Assembly (NCBI RefSeq): GCF_003334305.1
Contig: NZ_QOWS01000001.1
From: Escherichia coli
Lineage (GTDB): Bacteria > Pseudomonadota > Gammaproteobacteria > Enterobacterales > Enterobacteriaceae
Length of the DNA: 64,000 nucleotides
Direction: 5' to 3' (one strand)
This document shows, in pieces, positions 49,831-52,800 of this stretch. A program made the position numbers. Positions within the stretch are counted from its first letter, which is position 1; every line of letters starts with the position of its first letter.

Positions 49831-52800
49831 TTAAATTTTCTACCGCGTACTGCACTTCACCCGCAGTTACCGCTTCGCACTCACATACCAGGCTACGGTG
49901 CAGACGGCCTTCGCTCAGCCAGGCAGGCGTGCGATCGCCATGACGATAAACCGCAGAACCGCGCAGCGGGGCAGGCAGGGAGATGACTTTACGCAAGGTA
50001 ACTTCAGCGGGTTCTTGTGAACCAGGCAGTGCCAGATCGGCAGTCGTACAGGGGCGCGTGTTGCCCAGTTTGCGGCATACCGCGTCGGTAGCCCATTCAG
50101 CCATCAGCCGATAGGTCATCAGTTTGCCACCGGTGATGGTGATAAATCCGTCCAGACCATCGCGTTCAGCATGGTCGAGCAGCACGATGCCACGGCTGAC
50201 GTTACGTCCGCTCGGGTCGTCATCGCTGGCAACCAGCGGGCGCACGCCAGAATAGGCCCGCAAAATGCGCGTTTTCGCCATCACGGGGGCCAGTTTTTCC
50301 CCTTCACGCAGCAGAATATCAACCTCTTCTGCCGTCACTCGATTATCGTCAATCTCGTTGTAATCAATACGTAAAGAGGTGGTACCAATCAGCGAAATGG
50401 TATCGCCAGGCACCAGAATATCGGCGTCGGAAGGTTTACGGCAGCGGTTGATCACATGCTGGTTAATGCGGTGATCCATGATCAGCAGCGATCCTTTCGC
50501 CGGGAACATGCGAATGCGCAGATCGGCATATTCGGCAATGTGTTGCCCCCAGATCCCAGCGGCATTAACCACGACAGGTGCATGAAGGGCCTGAGTTTCG
50601 CCGGTGAGATGGTTACGTACACGAACACCGCACACCGTCGCGCCTTCACGAATCAGCCCCGTGACTTCATGAGCGGTAAGGATAACGGCACCGTGTTCTT
50701 TGGCATCCAGCATGTTTGCTGCGGTCAGACGAAATGGATCAACGGTGCCATCCGGAACTTTCACCGCGCCAATCAGTGCCGGGTTAACGGCAGGTTCGAT
50801 AATGCGCGCTTGCTGCGGGTCTATAGCTTCTGCGCTGATCCCTGCTTCTTCGCAGGCGCGAATAAAAGTGGCCTGGAAGGAGAGGTCATCTTCCGGCAGG
50901 GTGATAAACAGGCCGTTGGTTGGTTCAACGCAGTGACGTGCAATGCGTTTCAGGATCTGGTTTTCACTAATGCATTCGCGGGCCGATTCCGCATCGGTTA
51001 CCGCATAGCGCGCACCGCTGTGCAGCAGGCCGTGGTTACGCCCGGTGGCACCGGTTGCGATGTCGTGGCGCTCAACCAAAATCACGCGCAGCCCGCGCAG
51101 GGCACAGTCGCGGGCAATCCCGGCTCCCGTTGCACCGCCACCAATGATAATCACGTCACTTGATTGCGAGTCGCGAGTTTTCATTGTTATCCCTCTGAAG
51201 TTCGTTTTTTACCATTTAGCCATAGTAAAAACATGAATTGTTTGATTTCGCGCATATTCGCTCATAATTCGAAAGTGAAACGTGATTTCATGCGTCATTC
51301 TGAACATTTTGTAAATCTTATTTAATAATGTGTGCGGCAATTCACATTTAATTTCTGAATGTTTTCTTAACATCGCGGCAACTAAAGAAACGGCAGGTTC
51401 TCCCACTGAATCAGTCTGTTAATCATAAATAAGACCACGGGCCACGGAGGCTTTCAATGTTGAGTATTTTTAAACCAGCGCCACACAAAGCGCGCTTACC
51501 TGCTGCGGAGATCGATCCGACTTATCGTCGATTGCGCTGGCAAATTTTCCTGGGGATATTCTTTGGCTATGCGGCTTACTATTTGGTTCGTAAGAACTTT
51601 GCGCTTGCTATGCCTTATCTGGTTGAGCAGGGATTCTCACGCGGTGATTTAGGTTTTGCCCTTTCGGGGATCTCGATTGCTTATGGATTTTCGAAATTCA
51701 TCATGGGTTCGGTATCGGATCGCTCGAATCCGCGCGTTTTCCTGCCCGCAGGTTTGATTCTGGCGGCGGCAGTGATGTTGTTTATGGGCTTTGTGCCATG
51801 GGCGACGTCGAGCATTGCGGTGATGTTTGTACTGTTGTTCCTCTGCGGTTGGTTCCAGGGGATGGGGTGGCCGCCGTGTGGTCGTACTATGGTGCACTGG
51901 TGGTCGCAGAAAGAACGTGGCGGCATTGTGTCAGTGTGGAACTGTGCGCACAACGTCGGTGGTGGTATTCCGCCGCTGCTGTTCCTGCTGGGGATGGCCT
52001 GGTTCAATGACTGGCATGCGGCGCTCTATATGCCTGCTTTCTGCGCCATTCTGGTGGCATTATTCGCCTTTGCGATGATGCGCGATACCCCGCAATCCTG
52101 TGGCTTGCCGCCGATCGAAGAGTACAAAAATGATTATCCGGACGACTATAACGAAAAAGCGGAACAGGAGCTGACGGCGAAGCAAATCTTCATGCAGTAC
52201 GTACTGCCGAACAAACTGCTGTGGTATATCGCCATCGCCAACGTGTTCGTTTATCTGCTGCGTTACGGCATCCTCGACTGGTCACCGACTTATCTGAAAG
52301 AGGTTAAGCATTTCGCGCTGGATAAATCCTCCTGGGCCTACTTCCTTTATGAATATGCAGGTATTCCGGGCACTCTGCTGTGCGGCTGGATGTCGGATAA
52401 AGTCTTCCGTGGCAACCGTGGGGCAACCGGCGTTTTCTTTATGACACTGGTGACCATCGCGACTATCGTTTACTGGATGAACCCGGCAGGTAACCCAACC
52501 GTCGATATGATTTGTATGATTGTTATCGGCTTCCTGATCTACGGTCCTGTGATGCTGATCGGTCTGCATGCGCTGGAACTGGCACCGAAAAAAGCGGCAG
52601 GTACGGCAGCGGGCTTTACCGGGCTGTTTGGTTACCTGGGCGGTTCGGTGGCGGCGAGCGCGATTGTTGGCTACACCGTGGACTTCTTCGGCTGGGATGG
52701 CGGCTTTATGGTAATGATTGGCGGCAGCATTCTGGCGGTTATCTTGTTGATTGTTGTGATGATTGGCGAAAAACGTCGCCATGAACAATTACTGCAAAAA

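What the first reader, a model, noticed from the sequence alone, without database searches (positions are those of the whole stretch)
51330..51345. CRP core site in the glpACB / glpTQ divergent region
TGTGCGGCAATTCACA matches the CRP core TGTGA-N6-TCACA at 9 of 10 positions. Both glp operons are catabolite-controlled. The same region contains TTCG-rich motifs (for example TTTCGCGCATATTCGCTCATAATTCGAAAG at 51246-51275) that could be GlpR operators, but I could not align these to a consensus with confidence.
Basis: partly seen in the sequence, partly recalled or inferred. Interest (0 to 1): 0.2.

Follow-up and report, generated by a model that had tools for sequence, protein, structure and literature searches.

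The report
Known CRP site of glpT promoter

Summary
The motif TGTGCGGCAATTCACA is real but lies at 51331-51346, one base right of the coordinates given. It sits in the 272-bp spacer between glpA (minus strand) and glpT (plus strand) of an E. coli genome.

- **Strength of the match.** The 10-position core alone is not rarer than chance across the window. The full 22-mer (51328-51349) is the best CRP matrix hit among all 64,000 positions with two independent matrices.
- **Conservation.** The half-sites are conserved and the spacer varies across 5,420 E. coli genomes. In 51 of 79 Enterobacterales loci a CRP-like site lies exactly 29.5 bp from a TAnnnT -10 hexamer.
- **Published evidence.** RegulonDB lists this 22-mer as a CRP activator site at -41.5 of glpTQ and -90.5 of glpABC. 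Genomic SELEX recovered it. DNase I footprinting in EHEC protects it, and crp and cyaA mutants lose glpT expression.

It is therefore the class II CRP site of the glpT promoter, and already known.

Its left end is also the footprinted FNR box, which RegulonDB lists as a weak third CRP site. The GlpR reading is plausible but only partly verified.

The parts
51328..51349 (.). Primary cAMP-CRP site, 22-mer ATGTGTGCGGCAATTCACATTT (core TGTGC-GGCAAT-TCACA at 51331-51346, centre 51338.5)
   Evidence: Rank 1 in the window with two matrices. Listed by RegulonDB at glpTQ -41.5 and glpABC -90.5, and recovered as a SELEX-chip peak. DNase I footprint in EHEC. Half-sites conserved and spacer variable.
51368..51373 (+). 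glpT -10 hexamer TAACAT; its first base is 29.5 bp from the CRP site centre
   Evidence: Read from the sequence. The same spacing to a TAnnnT hexamer occurs in 51 of 79 orthologous loci, against a background of 0.018 per position. The hexamer is conserved in alignment A2.
51380..51380 (+). glpT transcription start (an A), inferred; gives a 77-nt leader
   Evidence: Derived from the RegulonDB position -41.5 for the site centre 51338.5. Kurabayashi's numbering (-30 to -52) gives 51379. Not measured here.
51457..52815 (+). glpT coding sequence (glycerol-3-phosphate transporter)
   Evidence: NCBIfam NF008433, 977 bits against a cut-off of 748.
49556..51184 (-). glpA coding sequence (anaerobic glycerol-3-phosphate dehydrogenase subunit A), divergent from glpT
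   Evidence: NCBIfam NF008313, 1109 bits against a cut-off of 425.
51278..51299 (.). Second, weak CRP site AAACGTGATTTCATGCGTCATT (centre 51288.5), 50 bp from the primary site
   Evidence: Listed by RegulonDB at glpABC -40.5 and glpTQ -91.5. Scores only 5.5 bits, rank 174 in the window. The CGTGA half is moderately conserved.
51238..51259 (.). Third RegulonDB CRP site TTGTTTGATTTCGCGCATATTC (centre 51248.5); contains the FNR box TTGAT-TTCG-CGCAT (51242-51255)
   Evidence: Listed by RegulonDB at glpTQ -131.5 and glpABC -0.5. Scores 8.4-8.7 bits. FNR(D154A) footprint with this box named. TTGTTTGAT is nearly invariant in 19 genera. Orthologues carry near-consensus FNR boxes.
51246..51275 (.). It covers the glpA core promoter as annotated (-27 to +2 of the RegulonDB start at 51248) and is a candidate tandem GlpR half-site region
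   Evidence: TTCG cores at 51247, 51257 and 51268; their G residues at 51250, 51260 and 51271 are invariant in 19 genera. On the minus strand it reads as the direct repeat TATGAGCGAA/TATGCGCGAA. GlpR consensus matches are 10-15 of 20, not above chance.
51288..51310 (-). GlpR operator listed by RegulonDB for glpTQ (K-12 AAAATGTTCAAAATGACGCATGA; the window has one A-to-G difference). It overlaps the second CRP site
   Evidence: Supplementary Table 1 of PMC7804116, taken from RegulonDB v8. Comparison with K-12.
51195..51217 (-). GlpR operator listed by RegulonDB for glpTQ (AAATGGTAAAAAACGAACTTCAG)
   Evidence: Supplementary Table 1 of PMC7804116. The GTTCGTTT core is conserved.
51248..51248 (-). 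glpA transcription start as implied by RegulonDB, 132 bp from the glpT start
   Evidence: Derived from the RegulonDB positions -90.5, -40.5 and -0.5 for the three CRP sites. Not measured here.
51214..51222 (-). Conserved TGGCTAAAT (TG-extended -10-like), 29.5 bp from the FNR box centre. Predicts an FNR class II glpA start near 51207
   Evidence: Invariant block in 19 genera. The same geometry is found in 31 of 53 loci that carry glpA. This is an inference only.

Best explanation
The site is the primary cAMP-CRP binding site of the glpTQ promoter and works as a class II activator site.

When glucose is absent, cAMP-CRP binds the 22-bp element centred at 51338.5, which is -41.5 relative to the glpT start at about 51380. 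There it overlaps and replaces a -35 element: only TCACAT lies in that position. From this position it contacts RNA polymerase directly and recruits it to the weak -10 hexamer TAACAT. This step is what is established for class II CRP promoters in general, not something tested for glpT. Transcription additionally requires release of GlpR by glycerol-3-phosphate. The GlpR operators lie upstream, over and around the glpA promoter. FNR bound further upstream increases expression anaerobically.

The same CRP site lies at -90.5 of the divergent glpACB promoter, which has its own weak CRP site at -40.5. It may therefore also assist glpA. That second role is annotated but its contribution has not been established.
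For: Shown here by computation:
- The site is the best CRP matrix hit in the window with two matrices, with P of about 1e-6 per position.
- The centre lies 29.5 bp from the TAACAT hexamer, the geometry expected for -41.5.
- This geometry recurs in 51 of 79 Enterobacterales glpT loci although the 18 bp in between diverge.
- Within E. coli the half-sites are fixed and the spacer varies: GGCAAT, GGTAAT, GTTAAT.
- The simple sigma-70 scan finds no -35/-10 pair for this start, as expected for an activator-dependent promoter.

From the literature, on the identical sequence:
- RegulonDB entry for glpTQ, activator, -41.5, and a genomic SELEX peak.
- glpT and glpA listed among the known CRP targets recovered by SELEX.
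- DNase I footprint at -30 to -52 overlapping the -35 region; glpT expression undetectable in crp and cyaA mutants.
- PhyloScan ranks glpT/glpA among the top CRP intergenic regions genome-wide.
Against: - Nothing contradicts CRP binding here.
The two sources differ by 1 bp (51379 or 51380, so -40.5 or -41.5).
- The left half-site is non-consensus (TGTGC).
- In some genera (Kosakonia, Phytobacter, Superficieibacter) the orthologous site is degenerate, at 9-10 bits or less with the first matrix. CRP dependence through this site is therefore not universal.
- The contribution of this site to glpA is stated as unresolved by Shimada 2011.
Confidence: 0.95

Rival explanations
1. One CRP dimer at this site serves both divergent promoters. 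It acts as a class II activator for glpT and, from -90.5, as the upstream partner of the weak -40.5 site at glpA. That would be a tandem arrangement in which the strong site is needed for catabolite control of glpACB as well.
For: RegulonDB annotates the site as an activator at glpABC -90.5, and lists a second site at -40.5 of glpABC, which is -91.5 of glpTQ. The two centres are 50 bp apart, so each promoter sees sites at about -41 and -91. The glpA-proximal site is very weak (5.5 bits) and could need help. Both operons are known CRP targets.
Against: Shimada 2011 states that the role of each CRP site in this spacer has not been established. No mutational data were accessible. If the main anaerobic glpA promoter starts near 51207, this site would lie at -131.5, too far for a usual direct contact.
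Confidence: 0.35
2. The match is a chance occurrence of a short palindrome in AT-rich intergenic DNA and has no function.
For: The 10-position core with one mismatch occurs as often as chance predicts in the window: 2 found, 1.8 expected.
Against: The full 22-mer ranks first in the window, with only 5e-4 to 5e-3 such hits expected in the spacer. Position and half-sites are conserved across genera. Published footprint, SELEX and mutant data apply to the identical sequence.
Confidence: 0.01
3. The palindrome is bound mainly by another CRP/FNR-family protein (FNR), or doubles as a GlpR operator, so that repressor and activator compete as they do at glpFK.
For: The recalled GlpR 20-mer consensus matches 51329-51348 at 13 of 20. 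At glpFK the CRP sites overlap GlpR operators O2 and O3. FNR regulates glpT.
Against: 13 of 20 is at chance level: 75 hits at 13 or more in the window against about 54 expected. The two RegulonDB GlpR sites obtained for glpTQ lie at 51195-51217 and 51288-51310, not here. Both half-sites carry the GTG.../...CAC pattern typical of CRP, not the TTGAT typical of FNR, and the FNR(D154A) footprint begins 32 bp upstream of the CRP footprint.
Confidence: 0.04

Closest known systems
RegulonDB CRP site of glpTQ (-41.5) and glpABC (-90.5) in E. coli K-12; footprints attributed to Larson, Cantwell and van Loo-Bhattacharya 1992 (J Biol Chem 267:6114)
   Same: Identical 22-mer. The window matches K-12 at every base of the site. 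Same flanking genes, same 272-bp spacer.
   Different: Nothing in the site itself. The window's spacer has 6 single-base differences from K-12 elsewhere, one of them in a GlpR operator.
Class II CRP-dependent promoters such as galP1 (galETKM, CRP at -41.5) and mglBAC (-41.5)
   Same: The CRP centre lies at about -41.5 and overlaps the -35 position. The -35 is poor, and the -10 hexamer begins 29.5 bp from the centre.
   Different: Here the promoter is also gated by a repressor (GlpR) acting from upstream operators. The site also faces a divergent promoter. The promoter-distal half-site is never consensus TGTGA in the 51 orthologues found.
glpFK promoter (tandem CRP sites overlapped by GlpR operators O2 and O3)
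   Same: Same regulon and same pair of regulators: cAMP-CRP activation plus GlpR repression relieved by glycerol-3-phosphate.
   Different: At glpFK the CRP sites overlap operators. At glpT the primary CRP site is not among the GlpR sites obtained from RegulonDB; only the weak second CRP site overlaps one.
Divergent promoter pairs with several CRP sites in the spacer (malEFG-malK, nagB-nagE, melR-melAB)
   Same: Shimada 2011 groups glpTQ-glpABC with these as spacers holding several CRP sites.
   Different: For glp the division of labour among the three sites has not been worked out.

Membership tests
cAMP-CRP binding site | 22-bp two-fold symmetric element with the core TGTGA-N6-TCACA and a score above that of typical known sites | tested here: met
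   9 of 10 core positions. 17.19 bits and 14.15 bits with two matrices, rank 1 in the window, above 91% of 68 RegulonDB training sites.
cAMP-CRP binding site | Half-sites conserved among relatives while the 6-bp spacer is free to vary | tested here: met
   E. coli variants have GGCAAT, GGTAAT or GTTAAT. Across genera GTGC and TCACA are conserved and the spacer is not. TCACA is present in 45 of 51 orthologous sites.
cAMP-CRP binding site | Direct, cAMP-dependent binding of purified CRP | not testable with these tools
   Published for the identical sequence: DNase I footprint and gel shift and a genomic SELEX-chip peak.
Class II CRP-dependent promoter | Site centred near -41.5 of the transcription start, overlapping the -35 region | tested here: met
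   The centre at 51338.5 is 29.5 bp from the first base of TAACAT. RegulonDB position -41.5. Footprint at -30 to -52. The start itself was taken from the literature, not measured here.
Class II CRP-dependent promoter | Transcription depends on crp and cya | not testable with these tools
   Published: glpT promoter activity is undetectable in crp and cyaA mutants of EHEC.
GlpR operator (for 51246-51275) | 20-bp operator matching the half-site consensus WATGTTCGWT (recalled from the Larson laboratory papers; consistent with the two RegulonDB sites) | tested here: inconclusive
   Best match in the spacer is 15 of 20 at 51237-51256. Within the stretch matches are 10-11 of 20. Window-wide, hits at 13 or more number 75 against about 54 expected, so the scan does not discriminate. 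The Reg-Seq paper also notes that 9 of the 17 RegulonDB GlpR sites differ from consensus at 9 or more of 22 positions.
GlpR operator (for 51246-51275) | Lies within the DNA protected by purified GlpR | not testable with these tools
   The 1992 footprinting paper is not held. Two RegulonDB GlpR sites bracket the stretch, at 51195-51217 and 51288-51310.
GlpR operator (for 51246-51275) | Conservation of the TTCG half-site cores among relatives | tested here: met
   The G of each TTCG core (51250, 51260, 51271) is invariant in 19 genera, at a spacing of about 10.5 bp.
FNR site (for 51242-51255) | TTGAT-N4-ATCAA box at a class II distance from a -10 element, and bound by FNR | tested here: inconclusive
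   7 of 10 core positions match in E. coli. Orthologues in Serratia, Pectobacterium, Dickeya, Edwardsiella and Cedecea have 1 mismatch, at the same 29.5-bp distance from a TG-extended -10. An FNR(D154A) footprint is published. No start site near 51207 is documented in what I could read.

The most novel reading that the evidence does not exclude
The conserved asymmetry of the site is functional. The half-site facing glpT is a perfect TCACA. The half-site facing glpA is never consensus in 51 orthologues (TGTGC, TGCGC, TGTGT). This would tune a single CRP dimer to drive glpT as a class II activator while also acting on the divergent glpA promoter. Linked to this, the main anaerobic glpA promoter may not be the annotated start at 51248. 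It may instead be an FNR class II promoter starting near 51207. If so, the RegulonDB 'CRP -0.5' site is really its FNR box.
Probability: 0.25. Interest if true: 0.3.

Novelty: already known. Interest (0 to 1): 0.07.

Why it matters
The site controls whether E. coli makes GlpT. GlpT imports glycerol-3-phosphate and is one of the two entry routes for the antibiotic fosfomycin, so loss of CRP or cAMP control at this promoter raises fosfomycin resistance. As a finding it adds nothing new: the site is in RegulonDB and has been footprinted at least once in a paper read here. Its value is as a positive control, showing that a reader working from sequence alone located a real regulatory site to within one base.

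Tried and rejected
- **Original footprinting papers.** Larson 1992 (by PubMed id and DOI), Zeng 1996, Tan 2001 and Grainger 2005 are not held. The GlpR operator map therefore rests on two RegulonDB sites quoted elsewhere and on my memory of the consensus.
- **ChIP-exo paper, Table S1.** It lists glpTQ only in a promoter-width table, with the left end of the transcription unit, not a start site. It says nothing about CRP occupancy.
- **CRPBSFinder.** No supplementary files are held.
- **Text search for the TTCG-rich sequence.** It found only a PCR primer.
- **GlpR consensus scan.** It does not separate signal from chance, so I did not use it to call operators, including any inside glpA.
- **Simple sigma-70 scan.** It found one promoter-like match (51301-51329), at chance frequency and not the known promoter; I disregarded it. 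The three terminator-like hairpins it reported are 5-pair stems with G-T pairs and I also disregarded them.
- **The other core match.** TGTGAGGCTTTTAACA at 27217 is not among the listed top hits of either matrix. I treat it as chance.
- **FNR ChIP-seq papers.** They could not be opened because the cap on papers was reached.

Full report
**What is in the sequence.** The window is E. coli DNA. Positions 51100-51560 are 100% identical to strain A7 and are found in 5420 of 5426 complete genomes. The open reading frame at 49556-51184 on the minus strand is glpA, followed by glpB and glpC. The frame at 51457-52815 on the plus strand is glpT, followed by glpQ. All match NCBIfam equivalog models far above their cut-offs. 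The spacer between them is 272 bp (51185-51456). The quoted TTCG-rich string is exactly at 51246-51275. The spacer differs from K-12 MG1655 at six positions, none of them in the motif.

**Is it more than chance?** The 10-position core with one mismatch is not, taken over the whole window: 2 matches against 1.8 expected. CRP recognises a 22-bp element, so I scored the full 22-mer with two matrices.

- The first matrix is palindromic and was derived by iterative realignment from the classical 18-promoter CRP benchmark. The 22-mer ATGTGTGCGGCAATTCACATTT (51328-51349) scores 17.19 bits and ranks first among all positions of the window. The lac site scores 16.74. The exact probability per position is 3e-7 to 1.3e-6.
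- The second matrix was built from 68 RegulonDB CRP sites copied from Table S4 of Shimada 2011, none from the glp genes. The site scores 14.15 bits, again ranks first, and beats 91% of the training sites. Between 5e-4 and 5e-3 such hits are expected in the spacer.

**Comparative evidence.** A scan of one genome per species returned 80 Enterobacterales glpT loci. About 50 of them have glpA divergent upstream.

- In Escherichia, Citrobacter, Klebsiella, Raoultella, Pluralibacter, Enterobacter, Leclercia and Cedecea, a CRP-like site with the same TGTGC...TCACA pattern lies 98-121 bp upstream of the glpT start codon.
- In a 19-genus alignment, the conserved islands are GTGC and TTCACA of the site, the TAACAT-type hexamer downstream of it, and the ribosome-binding region. 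The 6-bp spacer and the 18 bp between site and hexamer are not conserved.
- The centre of the site is exactly 29.5 bp from the first base of a TAnnnT hexamer in 51 of 79 loci. The background frequency of such a hexamer at a given offset is 0.018. This is the geometry of a site at -41.5.
- Within E. coli, a 34-bp stretch around the site is present in 5420 genomes and identical in 3537. In the four variant genomes I examined, most differences within the site are in the spacer: GGCAAT, GGTAAT, GTTAAT.
- In Kosakonia, Phytobacter and Superficieibacter the orthologous site is degenerate.

**Published evidence on the identical sequence.**

- Table S4 of Shimada 2011 (PMC3105977) reproduces the RegulonDB entries. 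ATGTGTGCGGCAATTCACATTT is an activator site at -41.5 of glpTQ and at -90.5 of glpABC.
- The same table lists two further CRP sites. AAACGTGATTTCATGCGTCATT (51278-51299) is at glpTQ -91.5 and glpABC -40.5. TTGTTTGATTTCGCGCATATTC (51238-51259) is at glpTQ -131.5 and glpABC -0.5.
- These positions put the glpT start at 51380 and the annotated glpA start at 51248, 132 bp apart.
- The SELEX-chip table of the same paper lists a peak in this spacer with the box TGTGCGGCAATTCACA. The main text counts glpA and glpT among the known CRP targets recovered.
- Kurabayashi 2017 (PMC5352689) footprinted cAMP-CRP on AATGTGTGCGGCAATTCACATT at -30 to -52 of glpT in EHEC, overlapping the -35 region. The same paper found glpT expression undetectable in crp and cyaA mutants.
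- PhyloScan ranked glpT/glpA among the top CRP intergenic regions genome-wide.

**Mechanism.** The evidence fits a class II CRP-dependent promoter. CRP sits where a -35 element would be: only TCACAT lies there, and the simple sigma-70 scan finds no -35/-10 pair for this start. From that position it recruits RNA polymerase to a weak -10. That CRP binds here and that glpT needs CRP and cAMP are shown in the literature. The -41.5 register is supported both by the literature and by the conserved spacing found here. The detailed contacts with polymerase are inferred from what is established for class II promoters. GlpR adds substrate control from operators upstream, and FNR adds anaerobic stimulation.

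Whether the site also acts on glpA from -90.5 is annotated but unresolved. Shimada 2011 says the role of each CRP site in this spacer is not established.

- The stretch has three TTCG cores about 10.5 bp apart, and their G residues are invariant in 19 genera.
- On the minus strand it reads as a direct repeat, TATGAGCGAA/TATGCGCGAA.
- This fits tandem GlpR half-sites over the annotated glpA core promoter.
- However, a scan with the recalled 20-bp consensus does not rise above chance, and the defining footprint paper could not be read.
- The left end of the stretch is the right half of the box TTGAT-TTCG-CGCAT, which FNR(D154A) protects and which RegulonDB lists as the third CRP site.
- The stretch is therefore a composite region. 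The GlpR reading is plausible but only partly verified.

**Seen in passing.** The FNR-like box is centred 29.5 bp from an invariant TG-extended -10-like element, TGGCTAAAT on the minus strand (51222 to 51214). In many other genera the box at this position is near-consensus, for example TTGCTCTTTATCAA and TTGTTCCTTATCAA. This predicts an FNR class II glpA promoter starting near 51207, 41 bp downstream of the annotated start. I could not check it against FNR ChIP or start-site data.

**Verdict.** The feature is already known, so interest is low.

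Noticed in passing
window 51207-51255, minus strand: An FNR-like box (ATGCGCGAAATCAA, 51255 to 51242) is centred 29.5 bp from an invariant TG-extended -10-like element, TGGCTAAAT (51222 to 51214). This predicts an FNR class II glpA promoter starting near 51207, 41 bp downstream of the start implied by RegulonDB (51248). In 31 of 53 loci carrying glpA, the best FNR-like box found upstream of glpA lies at this distance from a hexamer preceded by TG. In Serratia, Pectobacterium, Dickeya, Brenneria, Edwardsiella and Cedecea the box is near-consensus. RegulonDB lists the same DNA as a CRP site at glpABC -0.5.
   Followed up: partly
window 51331-51335 and orthologous sites in L002-L081: The promoter-distal half-site of the glpT CRP site is never the consensus TGTGA in 51 orthologous class II sites (TGTGC 28, TGCGC 5, TGTGT 5, others 13). 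The proximal half is TCACA in 45 of 51. The reason for this conserved asymmetry is unexplained.
   Followed up: partly
window 5483-5504: The second-best hit of the first CRP matrix in the window is TTCTGTGATCTACTTCAGGCAT (14.3 bits). It lies 168-189 bp upstream of a 312-aa frame (5672-6610, +), which I take to be lrhA from its position next to the nuo genes and from the SELEX table entry; I did not run a family search on it. It corresponds to the SELEX-chip CRP peak 'nuo< <lrhA TGTGATCTACTTCAGG' in Shimada 2011 Table S3.
   Followed up: partly
L083 (E. coli EC17CM12), aligned to window 51334: A rare E. coli variant has TGTAC in place of TGTGC in the CRP site, losing a key G of the half-site. 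Only 3 of 5420 genomes fall in the 90-95% identity band for this 34-bp stretch. Such a change could lower glpT expression and fosfomycin uptake; this was not tested.
   Followed up: no
window 51440-51452: The 13-nt block GGCCACGGAGGCT just upstream of the glpT start codon is nearly invariant across 19 genera, while the rest of the 77-nt leader is not conserved. It extends beyond the GGAGG ribosome-binding core.
   Followed up: no
window 51300: The window carries G where K-12 has A inside the RegulonDB GlpR operator AAAATGTTCA(A/G)AATGACGCATGA. The other E. coli strains examined show C, T or A at the same plus-strand position.
   Followed up: no
window 12098-12140 (+): The only Rfam match at gathering threshold in the whole window is the nuoG RNA motif (RF01748, 50.3 bits). 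This places the nuo operon in the window.
   Followed up: no
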